A stretch of DNA of 63,942 bases, filler included, from Chrysochromulina tobinii (lineage: Eukaryota), in NCBI GenBank assembly GCA_001275005.1. It is 9 parts of 9 records of this genome, joined end to end, with 100 filler letters (N's around TTAATTAATTAA, not from the genome) between each part and the next. Parts side by side here need not be neighbours in the genome. Positions count along the whole stretch, not along the records: positions 38,234 to 44,980 come from JWZX01000341.1; 8 more parts are not named here. The stretch is one strand, 5' to 3'. Shown here one piece after another: positions 28,200 through 61,595 of this stretch. Positions within the stretch are counted from its first letter, which is position 1. Each line of letters starts with the position of its first letter. A program made the position numbers and the translations under genes. The notes beneath the pieces were generated by a model. The model was given only the letters and a program-made list of their open reading frames with translations. It was not told the origin of the DNA and searched no databases.

Positions 28200-28371
28200 C
28201 TCAGCACGGCGCCCCAGCGGAGGCGGCACCGAGAGCAGCGGACACGTGGCATGCAAGTGCTCAGCACGGCGCCCCAGCGGAGGCGGCACCGAGAGCAGCG
28301 GACACGTGGCATGCAAGTGCTCAGCACGGCGCCCCAGCGGAGGCGGCACCGAGAGCAGCGGACACGTGGCA
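28200..28371 (+). repeat. 60-bp coding tandem repeat at contig start (AQHGAPAEAAPRAADTWHAS)
   Basis: ~2.9 exact copies; same unit as 37945-38133. Confidence 0.95.
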
Positions 28372-37500: not shown

Positions 37501-38133
37501 CGAGATTGACGGACGGAGCGCTGACGAGTGACGCGCTGACGAGTGACGCGCTGACGGCGACGCCAACGATCAGGGCCCTGCCAGCCGCATGCAATGTCAG
37601 CAGTACAGCGAGCACAGCCGCTCGCCTTCGGAACGTTGGAGATTCGTCAACTGCCGCATGCAATGTCGGCAGTACAGCGAGCACGGCCGCTGCGCCAGGC
37701 GAGGGCGCGGTAGCAAGCGTCGTGTTGGGCGCCTCCAGGCCAGGCGAGGGCGCGGTCGCAAGCGTCGCTGCGGCGCATGACGTGGAGGCGCCCAACACGA
37801 CGCCCAGCATGGCGCCCAACACGGCGTCCAACATGGCGCTCAGTACGACGCCCAACACGACGCCTGTCGTCGAGGCGCCAGAGGCGTCGGAGACCGAGCT
37901 CAAGCCGGAGGCATCGATCGCTTTGAAGCAGACGGATGCAGCCGCGGAGGCGGCACCGAGAGCAGCGGACACGCGGCATGCAAGCGCTCAGCACGGCGCC
38001 CCAGCGGAGGCGGCACCGAGAGCAGCGGACACGCGGCATGCAAGCGCTCAGCACGGCGCCCCAGCGGAGGCGGCACCGAGAGCAGCGGACACGTGGCATG
38101 CAAGTGCTCAGCACGGCGCCCCAGCGGAGGCGG
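34528..38133 (+). CDS. Large low-complexity protein with double zinc ribbon; probable introns 36544-36754 and 37148-37268; open at contig end
   Basis: RFCFACGTKL...LFCSSCGQ and a coiled-coil exon. The GT..AG introns contain (GATTGCCTCT)n or (GATTGCGCCT)n and restore frame. Start uncertain. Confidence 0.55.
36805..36932 (+). repeat. 42-bp coding tandem repeat x3 (RDLLAARAESRGQS)
   Basis: GATCTCCTCGCAGCTCGGGCCGAATCTCGGGGCCAATCTCGG repeated three times. Confidence 0.9.
37945..38133 (+). repeat. 60-bp coding tandem repeat at contig end
   Basis: ~3 copies, same unit and orientation as 28200-28371. Confidence 0.95.
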
Positions 38134-38233
38134 NNNNNNNNNNNNNNNNNNNNNNNNNNNNNNNNNNNNNNNNNNNNTTAATTAATTAANNNNNNNNNNN
38201 NNNNNNNNNNNNNNNNNNNNNNNNNNNNNNNNN
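38134..38233. other. Artificial contig linker
   Basis: N44-TTAATTAATTAA-N44. Confidence 0.99.
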
Positions 38234-41200
38234 AGGAGATCGGCGACGAGGGCGGCATGGTCGTCGCAGGTCTCATACCTGCTATGTCGGTGCTCGCGCG
38301 CGTCGACATGCGCGGCAACAACTTGGGCGTCGAGGGCTGGACCAGTATCTTCAACGCCTTGCGCGACAGCCCCACCAGCAAGATCTCCGCATGGGACCTG
38401 TCCCGCGAGAACTTGGGCCCTGGGATCGCTACGCCACTGGCCGAGTACCTCTGTACTTCTACAATGATCACCGAGTGCAACCTGCGCGGCAACAACTTGG
38501 GCGTTGAGGGCTGGACCAGCATCTTCAACGCCCTGCGCGACAGCCCCACCAGCAAGATCACCGCATGGGACCTGTCCGGCGAGAACTTGGGCCCTGGGAT
38601 CTCTACGCCACTGGCTGAGTACCTCGGTACTGCTACATCGGTGCTCGCGCGCGTCGACATGCGTGGCAACAACATTGCGGGCGACAGCGCCGCGCAGCTC
38701 TCAGCCGCTGTCCTCGGCAACCTCAAGATCGAGATGTTCAACGGGATCCCGATCAAGGAGATGCGCGCCAACTCCATCACCGAGCTCGACCTGAAGGGCA
38801 AGGAGATCGGCGACGAGGGCGGCATGGTCGTCGCAGGTCTCATACCTGCTATGTCGGTGCTCGCGCGCGTCGACATGCGCGGCAACAAGATCACGGGCGA
38901 CAGCGCCGCGCAGCTCTCAGCCGCTGTCCTCGGCAACCTCAAGATCGAGATGTTCAACGAGATCCCGATCAAGGAGATGCGCGCCGACTCGTTCACGGAG
39001 CTGGACCTGGAGGGGAAGGACGTCGGAGTCGAGGGAGGTATGGTCGTGGCAGGACTCATACTCGTCATGGGCGCCTTGACACAGGTGCTCGCTTTCTGAC
39101 ACCCCCTTGACTGCCTTGAAAGTTACTCTGACCCTTGGTTTTGCTTTGAATGTTATTTTCAGCTGGACCTCTCATACAACCAGCTGTGCGGCCTCGATCG
39201 TTATGGGGAAGGAACTTACAATGCAGAGGGGATCACAGCAATTGCCGACGCTTTGCGCGTTAATGGCGGGCTGACAAGTCTCAATCTCTCGTCCAACAAT
39301 CTCTGTTCCTTGGTGAATGAGACTGGCTACATCAAGGCAAGCCAGGTCCAGGGCTCTTCCTTCAATGTGGGCGACAAAGTTGTTTATCAGGGCAAGGAAA
39401 TGATCGTCTCTAAGGCCAAAGATAGAGATGGTGACCTCAAAATGACCAACTTGCCAGACTGGTCTGGTCTCAATGCTCTTGCGGATGCCTTCCGCGTTAA
39501 TGGCGCGCTGACGAGCCTGGACATCTCAAACAACAGGATGGGTGACGACGGTGTGAAACTGATCTGTGAGGCCCTCAAGCAGAACAGCAGCTTGAAGGTG
39601 CTCGACCTGAACGCGAGTTATACCAGAGGTGGAGAAATCGGTCCACAGGGCGCCCAATATCTCGTCGACATGCTCAGCGTTAATGGCGGGCTGACGAGCA
39701 TCAAGATGTCCGGAAATGATCTCACTGACTCCGGCGGGGACATGACGGGCATCAAGGAGCTCGCCGCAGCTCTTGGCGTCAACGGCGCCTTGACACAGGT
39801 GCTCGCTTTCTGACCCCCCAGAGGCCATTTCTGTTCCTCTAACCCTTGCCTTTGTTTTGGATGGTATCACAGCTGGACCTCTCACACAATCAGCTGTGCG
39901 GCATCGATGCTGATGGCAAAGGACAATACAATGCAGAGGGCATCACTGCAATCGCCGACGCCATGCGCATGCGTGTTAATGGCGGGCTGACGGTGGCCAA
40001 CCTCCTGGGTAATCAGCTCGATGCGGAGTCCGCCAAGATGCTCGCTGAGGTCGCCAAGCAGAAGGGCATCTCGCTCTGCGGCATCCAGCGCGACCAGACC
40101 ACCGCTGACTTCTCCCTATACGAGCCGCCCGATGCGATCCTGCTGGCGTCGGACCTGTCACAGGCTGTAGTCACGGGCGTGCTGACGAGCCTGGACCTCG
40201 AGGGCACGCTGTGCGGCCTCGACAGCCATGGGCGTGGAACTTACACTGCAGAGGGGATCACAGCAATTGCTGAAGCTCTGATCGTCAATGGCGTGTTGAC
40301 AGGCATCAACGTCCGCGACGGCGATATTGCGGGCGACGGCGCTACGCAGCTCTCAGCTGCTGTCCTAGGCAACATCAAGATCGAGATGTTCAACAAGATC
40401 CCGATCAAGGAGATGCGCGCCGACTCGTTCACAGAGCTGGACCTGAAGGGGAAGGGCTTTGGAGTCGTGGGAGGCATGGTTGTTGCGGGACTCATACCCG
40501 TCATGGGCGGGCTGACGAGCATCGACCTCTCCGGAAACAACTGGTTGTGTGGCATCTGGACTGACGGCTTTGGCGACCAACAAGGCACCTACACAGCAGA
40601 GGGCATCATTGCAATCGCCGACGCCCTGCGTGTTAATGGCGGGCTGACGGTGACCAACCTCCTGGGGAATCAGCTTGATGCGGAGTCCGCCAAGATGCTC
40701 GCTGAGGTTGCCAAGCTGAAGGACATCTCACTCTGCGGCATTCAGCGTGACCAGACCACCGCCGACTTCTCCTCGTACGGACTCCTGCCACCCGATGCGA
40801 TCCTGCTGGCGTCGGAACTGTCACAGGCCAGTGTCACAGGCGCGCTGACGGCCCTGAATTTGTCCTCTAACTGCCTCGGAGATGAGGGCGTAAGCGCAGT
40901 CTGCAAGGCCATCCAGAGCAACAAGGAGACCAAGCTCGCGTCGCTCAACTTCGAAAATAATGGAATCGGTCCAGTTGGAGCAAACGCTGTGGCGGCTATG
41001 GTAGCCGTCACAGGCGGCCTGCACGGCCTGCATCGCGTCTCGCGTCATCCGCTGCTCTGGTCGCTCGCGTTCGTCGGCCTAGGTGCCGCGCTCGCGGTGC
41101 CCTCGGTGCCGCAGGCCGTGTGGCTGTGCGGCCCGGCCCTAATGGCTCTGTTGGGCGGCGCCCACATTGACTTCCGTCATCGGCGCCAGCTTGGGGCCAC

Positions 41201-43190
41201 GCTGACAAGCATCGACCTCTCCGGAAACCAGCTGTGTGGCATCTGGACTGACGACGATGGCGACCAACATGGCACCTACACCGCAGAGGGCATCACTGCA
41301 ATCGCCGACGCCCTGCGTGTTAATGGCGCGCTGACGGTGACCAACCTCCTGGGTAATCAGCTCGATGCGGAGTCCGCCAAGATGCTCGCTGAGGTCGCCA
41401 AGCAGAAGGGCATCTCGCTCTGCGGCATCCAGCGCGACCAGACCACCGCTGACTTCCGCAACCAGGACCTCCAGCCGCCCGATGCGATCCTGCTGGGGTC
41501 GGACCTGTCACAGGCTGTTGTCACAGGTGGGCTGACAAGCATTGACCTCTCCGGAAACCAGCTGTGCGGCATCTATTTTAAATGGGGAGAATATATTCGA
41601 GGCACCTACACCGCAGAAGGCATCGCTGCAATCGCCGAGGCCCTGCGCGTTAATGGCGGGCTGACGTCACTCAACCTCTCGTCGAATCTTATCGGAGGCT
41701 ACTGGGACCACGAACAGCGAACAAACGTCTTCACCCCTGAGGGGCCAAAAGCTATTGCAGATGCGCTTTTGGTCAATGGCGCGCTGACGAGCCTGGACAT
41801 ATCAAACAACCGGATGGGTGACGATGGTGTGAAACCGATCTGTGAGGCCCTCAAGCAGAACAGTAGCTTGAAGGCGCTAGACCTGAACGCAAGCCAGACC
41901 AGTGGTGGAGTAATTGGTCCACAGGGCGCCCAATATCTCGCCGACATGCTCAGCGTTAATGGCGCACTGACGGCCCTGAATTTGTCCTCTAACTACCTCG
42001 GAGATGAGGGCGTAAGCGCAGTCTGCGAGGCCATCCAGAGCAACAAGGAGACCAAGCTTGCGTCGCTCCACATGGGCAAGAACCGCTTCGGTCCAGTGGG
42101 AGCAAAGTCAGTGGCGGCCATGGTGGCCGTCACAGGCGTGCTGACGTCTATCAACCTCTCCAACAACGTGCTGTGCGGTGTGGAACATTGGGGCCAGGGC
42201 ATTTACACTGTAGAGGGCATCACTGCAATCGCTGACGCCCTGCGAGTTAATGGCGCGCTGACGAGCCTGGCCATATCAAACAACCGGATGGGTGACGACG
42301 GTGTGAAACCGATCTGTGAGGCCCTCAAGCAGAACAGTAGCTTGAAGGCGCTAGACCTGAACGCAAGCCAGACCAGTGGTGGAGAAATTGGTCCACAGGG
42401 CGCCCAATACCTCGCAGACTTGCTCAGCGTTAATGGCGCATTGACGTCCGTCGACCTCGGGGGCAACAAGCTCGGGGACGAGGGCTGGGGCGCCATCTTT
42501 GCCGCCATCTGCGGCAACAAGGACAGCAAGATCATGTCTATGGACGCGTCCTCCGAGAGCATCGGCCCTGCTGGTGGCAAGCTGATCGCCGAGGCGCTCC
42601 GCACGAGCGTCACAGGCGCATTGACGTCCGTCGAGCTCAGAGGCAACGAGCTTGGGGACGAGGGCTGGGGTGCCATCTTTGCCGCCATCTGCGGCAACAA
42701 GGACAGCAAGATCATGGCTATGGACGCGTCCTCCGAGAATATCGGCTCTGCTGGTGGCAAGCTGATCGCCGAGGCGCTCCGCACGAGCGTCACAGGCGCA
42801 TTGACGGTGACCAACCTTCTGTGCAATCGACTTGATGCGGAGTCCGCCAAGATGCTCGCTGAGGTCGCCAAGCAGAAGGGCGTCTCGCTCTGCGGCATTC
42901 AGCGTGACCAGACCACCGCTGACTTCTCCCACTCCCTACTCGAGCCGCCCGATGCGATCCTGCTGGCGTCGGACCTGTCACAGGCCGTTGTCACAGGCGC
43001 GTTGACATGCGTCGACGTCCGCAGCAACAACATCGAGGACGACGGCGCTGAGCAGCTCTCGGCCGCTGTCCTTGGCAACCTCGAGATCGAGATGTTCAAC
43101 GGGATCCCGATCAAGGAGATGCGCGCCAACTCTTTTACGGAGCTGGACCTGATGGGGAATGGTGTCCGTGGTGTTCGAACACGACGATGA
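38234..43190 (+). CDS. NLRC3/RNI-like leucine-rich-repeat protein, 5'-partial; introns 39085-39162 and 39799-39872
   Basis: Dozens of LTxLDLSxNxLxxEG repeats ending ...ALRVNG[AG]. Both introns begin GTGCTCGCTTTCTGAC and end CAG|CTGGACCTC. Confidence 0.9.
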
Positions 43191-43921
43191 CGGCGGCCGC
43201 CGCATAGCTCCACTGGTCCGCGCTCATGGTGACCCTGTGAACATGAACCTCATGGTGTGAACATGAACCTCATGGTGCTACGCCCATGCCTGGGTGATCA
43301 TTGGCGAGATCGCCGACACGGCGGTGCCCGACACGGCGAGATGCCTGGCACGGGGTGTCCGCGCCCGAGGCAAACCCCAGGCGGCGCAAAAGTGTGGGGG
43401 CAGCACGGCGTACTGTTGCTGGATTTCTGGAGCGGTGTACGCGGTTCATGTACTCTCACGACGACGGAGCGTGTATGAGTATGTGTCGGCGGGAGAACGG
43501 AAGGCGGAGAGAACGGAAGCCGGAAGCAACTCGGTGTGCGGTCACGTTGAAAGACTGGAATAAACGATACATTTGTCGCAATCACGCATGATTGTGCATT
43601 GTCGATGTCGTGTGCTAAAAAACGAAACGGTATATCACTATCTTTCTGGATGCTGATGTTTCATGTTACATCTGGCCACACGTCGACAACGAACGTGAAA
43701 AGGTCGTGCCAGACCCGTTCTCCCTCTCTCAGGTAAACAGGTAAACCCCCGCGGTCATACCATGGGCCGAATGACCCGGCGTATCCCGGCGAAACATCAA
43801 CGGCTTGGGTTCACTGGAGCCTACGAACGACACGGTCGGTGTCGTGCTGTTTGGGGTATCGTGGACGCAAACGACGCATTCGCCTACCCCAACATATTTC
43901 CCACACTGGTGGTTTGGCCGT

Positions 43922-58029: not shown

Positions 58030-61000
58030 TCACTGGTCTTCGTATCTCGCATCCGAATCGTAGAAGAACTCCGGGTCTTCGAAGCACGAGGGCTCGTAAG
58101 TGGATGGCCCCGGGAGGCCGTTGTCGTCAAGTCGAACGGCAACGTGCTTTGGGTCTGCATGCGCCGTGTCAGGCGGGGGGCCGAGTTGGGCGGGCACGAC
58201 GGGGTTAGGCAGCGGCGCATCGAGCGGGGTCCCGGGTTGCACCACGGGGCTAGGCAGCGGTGCTTGGTACTTCCGCTTGCTAGAGCGCAACGTCATGAAT
58301 GAGGGACCCGCCTCGAGCGCCGAGACCTCTAGCGTGAACATTTCGGGCTTGGCGTGTTTCGTGGAATGATCGCCGTACGGGTCGCCGTCGTCGTCGTCGT
58401 CCGCGCGAGCGGTGTTGCGGTGCTGCTCTGCGCGGCGCTTGCGCTCGTTGATCACCGTGAAGTAGGACATCCATTCATCCTTGACATCTTCGTAGTCTTT
58501 TTCAGACATCTCCTCGTGGTGACCCCATCCTGGTGCGTCGGTTGGCTTGGCAGCGACGCTCTGGGATGAGGGGAAGGGCGAGAGGCGGGCGGCGCGCTCG
58601 GCTTCCTTGAGCTCGATGGAGGCGATGGCCTGGAGCACCAGTGACAGCTTGGCTCCCGTGCCAAGGTACAGGGCGACCGTACCGTTGGCAACGTTTCCGA
58701 AGGTGATCGGATCGCCGCGGTCAGTGACAAGCTGGGCAAGCTCGTCGTTGCGCTTTCTGAACGAATCGTAGTCGAACTGCAGCTCGTCGGGGGCTGGCAT
58801 GTTGCCAGCGTATACGGCGTACAGCTGTCCGAGGCGTTCAGTTCGCGCGGCGGGCGGGAGGTCGAAATCGGCGAGCAGGCCGGTCGTCTTACGCATCGTC
58901 GGTTCCGCAGCCGAGGCAGCGGCGTTCGTCAGTACGAAAGGCTCCAGCTTGGTAGCCGTGGTCGGGTCATCCCGGATCCAGAGGTAGGGAACGGCGTCGA
59001 CTTTGAGCGTCGGGGTCTCAAGGGCTGATGCTTCGGCGCTCGTGGAGATCTGGTTCTTGGAGTTGGTGAGGTACGCGACCGCCGTATCCGTCTGCTTCTT
59101 GCCCTTCCACTTCGTCATAAAGTCGACGGGCATGGACGCCGTGTCGACCTTGGCGAGAGTGATGTTGCCCTGGCGTACGTGCGCCCGAATGTGCGCCCAC
59201 CGGCGCACCGCGTGCTTCGCTTTGCCAGGCGTGGCCGTACCGAGGCCGAGTGTCAGGTTGGCCGAGTTGTCCGTGCCGATCATGATGGGGCTGGTCGGCG
59301 GGTGGCCGAAGGCGCGCAGGATCTCGATCGCGTACACTGCGACTTGCGAGGCGCGCTCAGTGGCGACGCTCTCGTTCCCGACGCTCCCGAGCTCGTCGAT
59401 GATCTCGGCGACCGTGCTGATCTTCTTGACCGCGTGCGCGACAACTCCGCCGTTGTGCGTGAGGACCAGCGCATAGACGGAGCGGCCGTCGACGTTGGCG
59501 TCGGCATGGACTTCCGGCTGTTCGGGTGCCGTTGCCTCGAGGTCCACGTTCGCGAAGAGCCCGCCTTGCAGCATGACGCGTTCAGCGAGTTGGCCGCCGT
59601 AGGTGATGCCTTCTTTGCGCCGCGCGTAGAGGGCGGCGATGAGCGAGCGCGCGACTGTGAGTGCTTCGGGTTGCTTGGCCATCGAAGCCACGCACGCGAG
59701 GCGGTGTTGGAAGAGGCTGAAGCGCAGTTGGACGCCGGCGACGATGTATGATGTAGCGCCGGCAATCTGTTGCGTTTCCTTGCCGGCCGTGCACATTTTC
59801 TTAGGCATAATCTCAGGCTTGCACAGGGCGTCGGCCGCCGCTTGCAGCTTGATGCCGCTCAGGATGTCGGCGGGCAGAGGCGCATCGACATCGAGGAGCT
59901 CGGGCACGTAGTCGCGCGCCAGTTGCACGATGTGCTGATCCATCGTGAGCGTGACGATGGAGCCGTCGGCAGACCATGCGAGCGCATAACCATTCCACGA
60001 GAGCGGCTTATACTTGACGGTGACGTCTTCGTCGCCGTAGCTCTTCTTGAAGTGCGTGATGAGGCGCTCCGTCAGGACGCGGTTGCGCCCACCAGTTTCC
60101 TTGTAGAGGATGTCGTCAACGTTGGTGATGATCACGAGGAAGCTGTCCACGTTCACGTCTTCCATGAACCAGGCGCCTGGCACCGTGAGGGACTCGGTCA
60201 TGCCTGCCTCGACGAGGCGCTTGTTGCGGTCCTGCTCCCATTCGTTGCCCGCGGCGGCCTCTCCCCAGATTGGGGCGCCGAGCTTGTAGCAGAGCTGGTC
60301 GCCCTCATCGTCGTACATCTTCTCGTAGGTCTCCATGAAGCCAACATCGCGGAGGCGTGCGGCCTTCGGATACGCGTTCTTGAAGTCCGTGGACGTGACG
60401 TCGTTCGGGACGCGGCGGAGCTTTGGGTCCTTGGCCATCAGCTCACGCAGTGTGGCCGCTTGGGCTTGCTCGTCTTGGCCATCTCGCCAAGGGAGGACGC
60501 GGCGTCCTTGGTCGTCTTGAACGTCGCCGAGGGTTGCCGTAGAGAGCATGAGCTTGAACTGCAGGTTGTCCGAGATCGTCGCGTGCGTGGCGGCGTAGTC
60601 CTCAACGCCCCTCGCGATCTGGATGCGCTTGACCTGGTCACCGGCGGAGCAGAGCCTGGATTTGAACTTGAGCAGTTCATGCGTCACGAGGTCCTTCTTC
60701 ACGGAGTCCTGCATCACGACCGGGGAGATGATCGCCCCGAGCGCCTTGGCCACCTTGCGCTTCTCCATCGTGTTCAGCGGGTTCGAGAGGACGGATTCGT
60801 GAGCCGCTTGATGCGAGAGGCGCCATGCAGCCTCGTTCGGGTCGGCCTTGAGCGCGCGCTCGTTCTTGGGGATGGTGATCGTGTACCACTCACCGCTCGC
60901 CGACTTGACGTCGACGATGTTCTTGAGCGCCTTGGAGACCTCGAGATCGTCGGCCAGCTCGGTGGCGCTCACCTCGGTCTGGAACGGGTCGATCTTGTTG

Positions 61001-61595
61001 AGGGCGCACTCGAGCTGGTGGATGTGCTCGCGTGCCTTGTCAAGCTCCTCGATCGACTGCACTTCGATTGGCACGATGTGGCCGAGCCATTGGTGCGCGA
61101 TTGCATTGAAGGTGTCAATGGCCGCAGTCTCCGAGAGCCCTGGGAGGACGCGCTCGAGCGCGGCCGAGACCGGCATTGTCAGCCCGGTCGATCGCAGGAC
61201 TCGACGTGGCGCCCCCTGCTGCAGCGCTATCACTGGGAAGGGCGCGGCAGGCACGGGTGCAGCAGCGGCAGGCGAGGGCGCGTTGAGCAGCCGCCACGGT
61301 TGGTGCTGCGATGTGAGGTCAAAGAGCTTGCCCTTCCACTTCGGATCGTCGGCCCAGCTCCTGTCATCCCAGCTCAGCTCGGTGAACACCTTGCCCGACT
61401 CTTGCTTGTGGGACTTGGTGACCGTGGCCGGGAACCATGTAGGCTTCTGCTTGTCCGTGTCGAAGCACATCTCGAGTCGCGTGCCATCAGGCAGCGGCTC
61501 GTAGCCTGCCTGGATGATGATCGGGGCGGGCGGTGGCTTCGGCGGGGCAGCGAGCACGAGCGGCGCGTAGGTCGCATCGTCGTCCGTCTGCACTT
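58030..61595 (-). mobile_element. Ty1/copia LTR retrotransposon pol (RT-RNase H), 5'-partial, uninterrupted
   Basis: RT: FKSRLCSAG, TDFKNAY, PIWGEAAAGNEW, ITNVDDIL. RNase H: HADAN, NESVA, GTDNSAN, KAKH, VDTASMPVDFMTK. Confidence 0.9.

What the first reader, a model, noticed from the sequence alone, without database searches (positions are those of the whole stretch)
38234..43190. LRR gene assembled from shuffled cassettes with hypervariable loops
Seen: about seven cassette types recur in non-tandem order with high DNA identity. Examples: VTNLLGNQLDAESAKM...VVTG x4, SLDISNNRMGDDG...SVNG x3, ALNLSSN.LGDEG...AVTG x2, and the IEMFN.IPIKEMRA cassette x4. Most cassettes in exons 2-3 join at a shared GGCG(C/G/T)RYTGAC junction (G[AGV]LT). 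Variation concentrates in the loop after LCG: LDRYGE, IDADGK, LDSHGR, IWTDGFGDQQ, IWTDDDGDQH, IYFKWGEYIR, VEHWGQ. The two introns are duplicates of each other. Known analogies: lamprey VLR cassette assembly and brown-algal LRR exon shuffling. Inference: a combinatorial receptor-diversification system using within-exon microhomology.
Basis: partly seen in the sequence, partly recalled or inferred. Interest (0 to 1): 0.75.

Follow-up and report, generated by a model that had tools for sequence, protein, structure and literature searches.

The report
Mix-and-match algal recognition gene family
This gene of a freshwater alga, like its many relatives, is built from about a dozen kinds of leucine-rich block that nearly all meet at one 17-letter DNA joint; a wild form lacks exactly one block and a piece of an unrelated host gene sits in the array as if it were a block, so recombination at the joint likely creates new binding surfaces, which are fused to a head predicted to tag proteins, probably foreign ones, for destruction.

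Summary
Observation confirmed and extended. The stretch is the 3' three-quarters of a Chrysochromulina (haptophyte) gene. Exons 2-3 hold 24 segments: nine ribonuclease-inhibitor-type LRR cassette kinds plus one foreign insert. The order is reproduced in other assemblies (25 of 27 contigs). The missing 5' end, recovered from L002, is a Skp1 domain fused to an F-box. The joint is 17 bp, GTYA-NN-GGCG-NR-YTGAC, with fixed synonymous codons. Bases left of GGCG follow the upstream cassette and bases right of it the downstream one; 35 of 36 neighbour pairs of the six common cassettes occur in the family. Lake RNA contigs lack one whole cassette across 8 shared bases. A 191-bp piece of the host's NnrU-domain gene, whose ends mimic the joint, is inserted in frame at a joint. 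Best reading: heritable, microhomology-guided cassette shuffling diversifies single-chain SCF-type substrate receptors, probably for defence (inferred). It is not a lamprey-type somatic system (complete gene, no cassette library, stable order) and not exon shuffling (10 of 97 joints carry an intron). Loops evolve fast, but positive selection is not proven. Ten literature searches found no description.

The parts
38134..38233 (.). Assembly linker (N44, a 12-base spacer, N44) that cuts off the 5' end of the gene; the true upstream part (Skp1, F-box, acidic run, cassettes G-C-H-I) is in L002 5405-7460 and L001 1-1470
38234..39084 (+). Rest of exon 1: cassettes G, G, I, I with mostly degenerate joints and 97-98% tandem repeats whose number differs between assemblies
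39085..39162 (+). Intron 1 (predicted, GT..AG, phase 0), 9 nt after the joint Leu codon start of an LCG cassette
   Evidence: splicing not seen in RNA
39163..39798 (+). Exon 2: cassettes L, H, S, D; H (39271-39507) carries an inserted small domain in its loop
39799..39872 (+). Intron 2 (predicted), homologous to intron 1, travelling with a second LCG cassette
39873..43190 (+). Exon 3: cassettes L T L I L T V [insert] L T L Y S V L S W W T I(cut short)
39064..43006 (+). 22 copies of the 17-bp joint GTYA-NN-GGCG-NR-YTGAC (starts 39064, 39259, 39496, 39679, 39778, 39975, 40170, 40284, 40500, 40632, 40833, 41319, 41520, 41649, 41772, 41955, 42129, 42246, 42429, 42609, 42789, 42990), coding V-[NTM]-G-x-L-T
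41016..41206 (+). In-frame copy of an internal piece of the host's NnrU-domain gene, inserted at a joint; both donor ends resemble the joint
41775..41957 (+). 183-bp S cassette absent from lake RNA contigs; the cut lies within 8 shared bases of two joints
   Evidence: (P0124)
43160..43714 (+). 0.5-kb segment duplicated upstream of the gene (L002 4649-5163, end of an M16 peptidase ORF; 89% with indels, 6-8 mismatches); it supplies the last codons, the stop and the 3' flank

Best explanation
This Chrysochromulina gene encodes a Skp1 domain, an F-box and a long array of LRR cassettes that meet at a shared 17-bp joint, and heritable recombination guided by that short homology likely inserts, deletes and swaps whole cassettes among many dispersed paralogues, giving proteins predicted to act as single-chain SCF ubiquitin-ligase substrate receptors, probably against foreign proteins. 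Shown: cassette vocabulary and free order, the joint and its codon fixation, the switch of linkage at its GGCG core, a natural one-cassette variant, a captured host-gene piece at a joint, the Skp1 and F-box homology. Inferred: the repair route (template switching or microhomology-mediated annealing after a break), that the joint is kept uniform by the exchanges themselves, cullin binding, and a defensive role. Because the alga is unicellular and reported as haploid, any mitotic event would be inherited.
For: Order real: L001/L002 match 99.7-99.9% over 6.5-6.7 kb; 25 of 27 contigs carrying long members of the cluster have the window's exon-3 order. Family: 164 hits at E<=1e-20, 120 listed, the named close ones Chrysochromulina; 86 distinct architectures in 94 typed proteins; 35 of 36 neighbour pairs among six kinds, with neighbour information 0.13 bit against 0.05 shuffled, of 2.45. 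Joint: 69 exact copies in six genes, 0 in 78.5 kb of flank; Val GTY 71/71 vs 143/227 elsewhere, Gly GGC 68/69 vs 270/475, Leu YTG 72/78 vs 181/452. In 90 typed joints positions 3, 5, 6 track only the upstream cassette and 11-13 only the downstream one. Relatives with the same cassettes use other joint residues (13 of 96 proteins), so the protein does not need this sequence. Cassettes with degenerate joints stay in fixed order G-C-H-I. Variant: joint 41774->41958 in 4 of 4 lake RNA runs, 0 of 2 culture DNA runs, 300 flanking bases without a mismatch, 8 shared bases, no AG acceptor in any register. Insert: donor on a 5218-nt contig of culture run X1, 2 differences in 191 nt, protein P0158; a second joint-bounded foreign insert in P0002. 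Head: Skp1 profile E 2e-11, fold Z 13.8, rmsd 2.5 over 133 residues; F-box profile hits F-box-type chains at E 0.007-0.9, Pfam F-box-like in 9 of 24 relatives.
Against: No recombination event was observed in time; all data are short-read contigs. Joints are not independent (copies share descent), so the codon P values overstate significance, and typing mislabelled some I and S cassettes. Loop pN/pS is about 0.8-1.0 on the loops' own synonymous sites and pS is raised too in T and 39-residue L loops, so relaxed constraint, local hypermutation or framework homogenisation could give the pattern. The window's own F-box has no Pfam hit. No ligand, viral link or induction is known: no relative in viral contigs. 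Other heads (EF-hand, ankyrin, NACHT, membrane protein) carry the same cassettes, so the SCF reading does not cover the whole family. Some breakpoints lie inside cassettes (3' end at 43160, P0121, P0124).
Confidence: 0.65

Rival explanations
1. Ordinary repeat turnover filtered by protein folding: illegitimate recombination happens anywhere, only joins just before the LxxLxL strand survive, the shared DNA is a passive relic and the loops drift.
For: The joint lies at the natural LRR boundary; loop pN/pS is near 1; in-cassette crossovers exist; I, W and V windows do not exceed the neutral simulation (190, 131 and 22 of 200).
Against: Synonymous positions are fixed across otherwise unalignable cassette kinds; a non-LRR donor entered where its DNA mimics the joint at both ends; degenerate joints lock cassette order; T, L39 and L43 loops exceed the simulated neutral maximum (0, 2, 0 of 200).
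Confidence: 0.15
2. A dedicated site-specific or programmed system: an unidentified recombinase or nuclease recognises the imperfect palindrome GTCA-N9-TGAC, cuts at the GGCG core and reshuffles cassettes during vegetative growth, perhaps on infection.
For: Inverted arms around an invariant 4-bp core and a sharp left boundary of exchange; three versions of one paralogous locus with different middle triplets (L004, L006, L010) and single-contig variants P0121 and P0127 in an alga reported haploid (PMC4580454).
Against: Three of four arm bases follow from the amino acids alone; the right boundary is soft (mixed codon pairs); the NnrU donor's right end lacks the GTYA arm; relatives use other joints; no recombinase, transposase or reverse transcriptase among 50 ORFs scanned; order is stable on 25 of 27 contigs; the L004/L006 switches begin inside long near-identical cassettes, as assembler paths would.
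Confidence: 0.12
3. Former exon shuffling: each cassette was once an exon, and introns were later lost through retro-copying, leaving precise joints.
For: 10 of 97 joints are followed by a predicted intron 9 or 14 nt after the Leu codon start, and those introns travel with their cassette; the genes are dispersed among housekeeping genes.
Against: The introns lie downstream of the exchange point and in two phases; the polymorphic cassette and the NnrU insert, both recent, have no flanking introns; 87 of 97 joints are intron-free.
Confidence: 0.06
4. The order is a short-read chimera of paralogues.
For: All data are short-read; exon-1 repeat number differs between L001 and L002; L004/L006/L010 disagree.
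Against: Same exon-3 order on 25 of 27 contigs; contigs of DNA runs tile unique neighbours in window order; a 17-bp joint is shorter than usual assembly words, so chimeric paths cannot create new neighbour pairs (inference).
Confidence: 0.02

Closest known systems
Fungal NLRs with high-internal-conservation repeats (Podospora HNWD and others; PMC13449251, passages read)
   Same: Near-identical repeats with a few hypervariable positions, length polymorphism between strains, repeat exchange within and between genes, heritable.
   Different: Those arrays repeat one unit kind; here a dozen unalignable cassette kinds of 28-79 residues share only a 17-bp joint. The head is Skp1-F-box, not NACHT/NB-ARC, and foreign gene pieces are captured as cassettes.
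Lamprey/hagfish variable lymphocyte receptors (PMC6995607, passages read)
   Same: LRR cassettes joined by very short homology; combinatorial binding surfaces.
   Different: VLRs are assembled somatically on an incomplete gene from a flanking cassette library; here every gene is complete, donors are other genes, order is largely stable, LRRs are ribonuclease-inhibitor type and the head is an intracellular SCF module.
[quoted passage not shown]
   Same: Protist candidate immune genes with intra- and intergenic LRR shuffling.
   Different: One fixed-length repeat per exon with recombination in introns; here exchange is inside coding sequence and 87 of 97 joints have no intron.
F-box/LRR (FBXL) substrate receptors of SCF ligases (Skp2, TIR1, COI1; PDB rows; function recalled)
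   Same: F-box followed by LRRs; Skp1 fold.
   Different: Skp1 is fused in the same chain; the LRR part is a reshuffled cassette array.
Integron-type cassette arrays (recalled)
   Same: Interchangeable units bounded by a common short, partly palindromic site.
   Different: Units are parts of one reading frame in a eukaryote; no integrase found; exchange point not fixed to one base.

Membership tests
Variable lymphocyte receptors | Incomplete germline gene completed from a flanking library of cassettes | tested here: not met
   Complete gene in L002; no cassette match elsewhere in the window; 0 exact joints in 78.5 kb of flanks of six genes
Variable lymphocyte receptors | Joining by very short sequence homology | tested here: met
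   8 shared bases at the natural variant, joint-like donor ends; the copy-choice chemistry itself is inferred
Variable lymphocyte receptors | Somatic, cell-by-cell assembly | tested here: inconclusive
   25 of 27 contigs share one order; single-contig variants and L004/L006/L010 may be assembler paths; no raw or long reads
Variable lymphocyte receptors | Secreted or surface receptor with LRRNT/LRRCT caps (recalled) | tested here: not met
   Head is Skp1 + F-box; LRRs match ribonuclease-inhibitor-type chains
Brown-algal / Tetrahymena LRR exon shuffling | One fixed-length repeat per exon | tested here: not met
   10 of 97 joints have a predicted intron; exon 3 holds 20 segments; cassettes 99-237 nt
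Brown-algal / Tetrahymena LRR exon shuffling | Intra- and intergenic reshuffling of repeats | tested here: met
   86 architectures in 94 proteins; same cassette kinds in many genes
Brown-algal / Tetrahymena LRR exon shuffling | Diversifying selection on exposed LRR sites | tested here: inconclusive
   Framework pN/pS 0.25-0.55, LCG loops 0.8-1.0; only L43 has pN 0.39 > own pS 0.16
Fungal HIC-repeat NLRs | Repeats 80-100% identical with hypervariable positions | tested here: met
   86-97% within T, S, V, W kinds; entropy peaks in each of six kinds
Fungal HIC-repeat NLRs | Repeat-number polymorphism between strains | tested here: met
   One-cassette variant in lake runs
Fungal HIC-repeat NLRs | NACHT or NB-ARC domain | tested here: not met
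   Absent from this gene; present in relatives P0054 and P0071
F-box/LRR SCF substrate receptors | F-box motif | tested here: met
   Profile A3: ten of eleven PDB rows align on its first 60 positions, nine named F-box, best E 0.007; Pfam F-box-like in 9 of 24 members, best 3e-6, none for this gene's own copy; three helices at pLDDT about 90
F-box/LRR SCF substrate receptors | C-terminal LRR substrate-binding domain | tested here: met
   Pfam LRR_6 E 2e-32
F-box/LRR SCF substrate receptors | Binds a separate Skp1 protein | tested here: inconclusive
   A Skp1 domain is fused in the same chain; binding was not tested
F-box/LRR SCF substrate receptors | Cullin-1 binding and ubiquitination of a substrate | not testable with these tools
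   Needs biochemistry
Site-specific recombinase cassette systems | Conserved palindromic site required at both partners | tested here: not met
   GTYA-N9-TGAC in LRR joints, but the NnrU donor's right end has no GTYA arm and relatives use other joints
Site-specific recombinase cassette systems | Cognate recombinase gene | tested here: inconclusive
   None in 50 ORFs scanned at six loci; no whole genome was held

The most novel reading that the evidence does not exclude
A unicellular alga runs an anticipatory immune system: a dedicated activity acting on the GTCA-N9-TGAC joint reshuffles LRR cassettes during vegetative growth and can capture pieces of host genes as decoys, so that each lineage makes new single-chain SCF ligases that destroy viral or parasite proteins.
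Probability: 0.12. Interest if true: 0.92.

Novelty: new variant of a known kind. Interest (0 to 1): 0.72.

Why it matters
How bloom-forming microalgae recognise viruses and parasites is largely open. This family offers concrete candidates: many receptors with a built-in ubiquitin-ligase adaptor and a visible rule for making new ones. The design differs from known repeat shuffling: structurally different LRR modules are made interchangeable by one short coding joint, with no introns needed, and the same joint lets unrelated host-gene pieces enter in frame, a direct glimpse of how integrated domains arise. A natural Skp1-F-box-LRR single chain with modular, swappable binding blocks would also be of interest for protein-degradation and binder design. 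The claims are testable with long reads of one cultured clone and a cullin pull-down.

Tried and rejected
No whole genome was held, so family size and a genome-wide recombinase search are open. Summed contig depth on cassette frameworks is over 100 times that of unique loops in culture DNA, but the tool says this is no copy number; kept as a hint only. Viral link: no relative of exon 3 or P0073 in viral contigs; of two hits for P0117, L015 holds generic LRR genes and L016 was not read. Splicing as the cause of the lake variant: rejected, no AG end in any of nine registers; template switching in library preparation is unlikely because the full form has no cover at 41834-41941 in both lake runs. 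A joint 41519->42609 with GT..AG ends in 3 of 4 RNA runs could be an exonic intron or a T-W paralogue; it was not listed at 96% likeness on a stretch that did not reach 42609, so undecided. Splicing of the two introns was not among the 15 joints shown (11 were hidden). L004/L006/L010 as proof of somatic change: not accepted, probably assembler paths. Single-sequence fold failed (pLDDT 39). Atlas gave nothing for the head and 0.89 (lead only) for NnrU. First script for foreign inserts printed nothing and was rewritten. The complex prediction of Skp1 domain with F-box was not run, so their docking is untested. Earlier scan notes: nothing on this family. Literature: searches (listings and abstract starts only) found no description of the family or of a natural Skp1-F-box fusion; the C. 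tobin genome paper has no occurrence of 'leucine', 'NLR', 'F-box' or 'Skp1' in its main text. Subscription journals and supplements were not seen and may mention it.
Full report
Observation. Removing two predicted introns (39085-39162, 39799-39872) leaves an open frame of 1600 codons from 38236 to 43190, with Pfam LRR_6 hits in all three exons. From the joint at 39064 onward there are 24 segments in the order L H S D L T L I L T V X L T L Y S V L S W W T I (letters are my labels). Copies of one kind are 86-97% identical for T, S, V, W and 63-82% for L. The introns share 57 positions over 78 and 74 nt and both follow an LCG-cassette joint.

Is the order real? Loci L001 and L002, from two metagenome assemblies, match the window at 99.7% and 99.9% over 6.7 and 6.5 kb. 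In the protein cluster, P0001, P0122 and P0123 (1, 13 and 11 contigs) have the window's exon-3 order; P0121 and P0127 (1 contig each) differ; three short members were not counted. These assemblies may come from related cultures and are not independent biology. The window is a string of contigs joined by linkers: L002 does not match it beyond them.

What the gene is. Named close homologues are from Chrysochromulina tobinii and C. parva (164 hits, 120 listed). L002 supplies the 5' end; the full model is 2205 residues in L002 and about 190 longer in L001, where near-identical exon-1 repeats are more numerous. A profile of 25 family members matches SKP1-like protein 1B at E 2.2e-11; the alignment-based model (mean pLDDT 73.5) superposes on Skp1 at Z 13.8, rmsd 2.5 over 133 residues (Foldseek agrees). 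The next 60 residues are an F-box: profile hits to F-box chains, Pfam F-box-like in 9 of 24 relatives but not in this copy. A Skp1/F-box-type motif is present in 57 of the 120 proteins (regex); others carry ankyrin, SPRY or NACHT domains or EF-hands. The LRRs are ribonuclease-inhibitor type. The six loci examined are singletons among housekeeping genes (49 of 161 candidate ORFs plus one head exon scanned).

The joint. It is 17 bp, GTYA-NN-GGCG-NR-YTGAC. It occurs 22 times in the window at one mismatch, all in the gene, against 0.33 by chance, and 69 times exactly in six genes against 0 in 78.5 kb of flank. In 78 joints Val is GTC/GTT in 71 of 71 (143 of 227 elsewhere), Gly GGC in 68 of 69 (270 of 475), Leu CTG/TTG in 72 of 78 (181 of 452). 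Copies share descent, so the P values are inflated, but the same codons are the majority in nearly every cassette kind. Among 97 joints, 90 typed ones show that bases up to position 6 carry information only on the upstream cassette and bases 11-13 only on the downstream one; in proteins the N/T/M residue follows the upstream kind (L 210 of 218 N, T 120 of 122 T, I 61 of 61 M). The right side is softer, so exchange falls in or just right of GGCG, not at one base. Strictly adjacent typed cassettes show 35 of 36 possible pairs among six kinds in 370 pairs from 79 proteins, with little dependence on the neighbour. In-cassette homologous crossovers cannot make new pairs (inference), so crossing at the joint must be frequent. 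Where the joint is degenerate, cassettes G-C-H-I keep a fixed order (P0049, P0102, P0180). Thirteen of 96 proteins, mostly more distant, use the same cassettes with other joint residues, which points to lineage-specific homogenisation and away from a protein requirement or a conserved recombinase site.

Shuffling seen in nature. Four of four lake RNA runs hold a contig joining 41774 to 41958. At 96% likeness the contigs match 231 + 69 and 146 + 74 bases without a difference and share 8 bases at the cut, while two culture DNA runs show the window's order. No register gives an AG acceptor. P0124, from another assembly, has the same deletion. Which form is older is uncertain. Second, 41016-41206 is a copy of an internal piece of the host NnrU-domain gene: P0158 (C. 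tobinii) matches the translated insert except one residue near its end, and a 5218-nt contig of culture run X1 matches 191 nt with 2 differences. The donor piece starts with Gly-Leu and ends with Gly-Gly-Thr-Leu-Thr, so both ends mimic the right half of the joint; the right end has no GTYA arm. Lake contigs span the insert with 28 and 40 flanking bases in 3 of 4 runs (the left side is under the tool's 31-base rule). P0002 has a second joint-bounded foreign segment. Third, the gene sits between two copies of a 0.5-kb segment, and its last cassette is cut and joined to the downstream copy outside a joint; the other five loci show no such repeat.

Evidence on somatic change. One paralogous locus appears in three versions with different middle triplets (L004, L006, L010/L014). 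C. tobin is reported haploid (PMC4580454, passages read). But the switches start inside long near-identical cassettes, as assembler paths would, so I do not count them. Stable order on 25 of 27 contigs argues against high-rate assembly.

Variation. 134 distinct LCG cassettes have 129 distinct loops by a loose pattern, enriched in W, Y, H, R, D; every one of six common kinds has its own variable patches, including the residue after the LxL strand. Framework pN/pS is 0.25-0.55 and LCG loops 0.8-1.0. The best five-codon window exceeds a neutral simulation for T, L39 and L43 (0, 2, 0 of 200) but not I, W, V (190, 131, 22 of 200); synonymous divergence is raised too in T and L39. Diversifying selection is therefore plausible, not proven.

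Mechanism. Most likely a break in one array is repaired by annealing or template switching: long homology inside a same-kind cassette on one side, or the 17-bp joint on either side. Joint-to-joint events delete or insert whole cassettes in frame, spread one joint sequence over all kinds, and now and then capture unrelated DNA that looks like the joint. No recombinase was found nearby. Products would be single-chain SCF receptors with changing specificity; a defensive role is inferred from rapid turnover, variable exposed sites and NACHT-bearing relatives, and from giant viruses reported for C. parva (listing only). No ligand is known.

Comparison. It works like fungal high-internal-conservation NLR repeats (PMC13449251, passages read) and, in its use of short homology, like VLR copy choice (PMC6995607, passages read), but is a member of neither. 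It differs from Ectocarpus (PMC3341825, abstract and two sections read) and Tetrahymena (PMC6564038, passages read) because 87 of 97 joints have no intron. Ten searches found no account of this family or of a natural Skp1-F-box fusion; supplements and subscription journals were not seen. Verdict: real, a new variant of known repeat-shuffling receptor systems, interest 0.72.

Noticed in passing
window 39271-39507; P0075 52-159; P0017 791-868: Small domains inserted into the variable loops of cassettes (H cassette; an SH3-like piece and a Cys-rich piece, labels recalled), a second route to integrated domains.
   Followed up: partly
P0002 397-434: 38-residue Gly/Ser-rich non-LRR segment bounded exactly by two joints; donor not sought.
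   Followed up: no
L014 8140-9999: Same cassettes behind a different head: EF-hands plus a stretch resembling HET/TIR-type motifs (recalled; no Pfam hit).
   Followed up: partly
P0180 (3761 aa): Skp1-F-box head with G-C-H-I cassettes followed by a second, unrelated array of long LRR-plus-SPRY-like repeats with variable patches (label recalled).
   Followed up: no
P0073, P0082, P0085, P0086, P0090, P0101, P0117: Distant metagenome proteins with the same cassette vocabulary, Ser-ending joints and often an F-box-like start without Skp1; organisms unknown, P0117 on a 649-kb contig.
   Followed up: partly
L014 57-2888: Y-family DNA polymerase ORF about 5 kb upstream of one paralogue; probably coincidence.
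   Followed up: no
window 28200-28371 and 37944-38133: A 60-bp tandem repeat at two contig ends is 98% identical, suggesting these contigs overlap or adjoin in the genome.
   Followed up: no
window 58033-61590 (-): Long ORF with a weak copia-type reverse transcriptase hit (E 0.24), on another contig.
   Followed up: no
window 41134: Lake contigs carry a 9-base in-frame duplication inside the NnrU insert, so the insert is polymorphic yet keeps the frame.
   Followed up: no
window 41520 and 42609: Joints after T, W and V cassettes read ACAG|G and could serve as splice acceptors; one GT..AG skip of 1089 nt appears in 3 of 4 RNA runs.
   Followed up: partly
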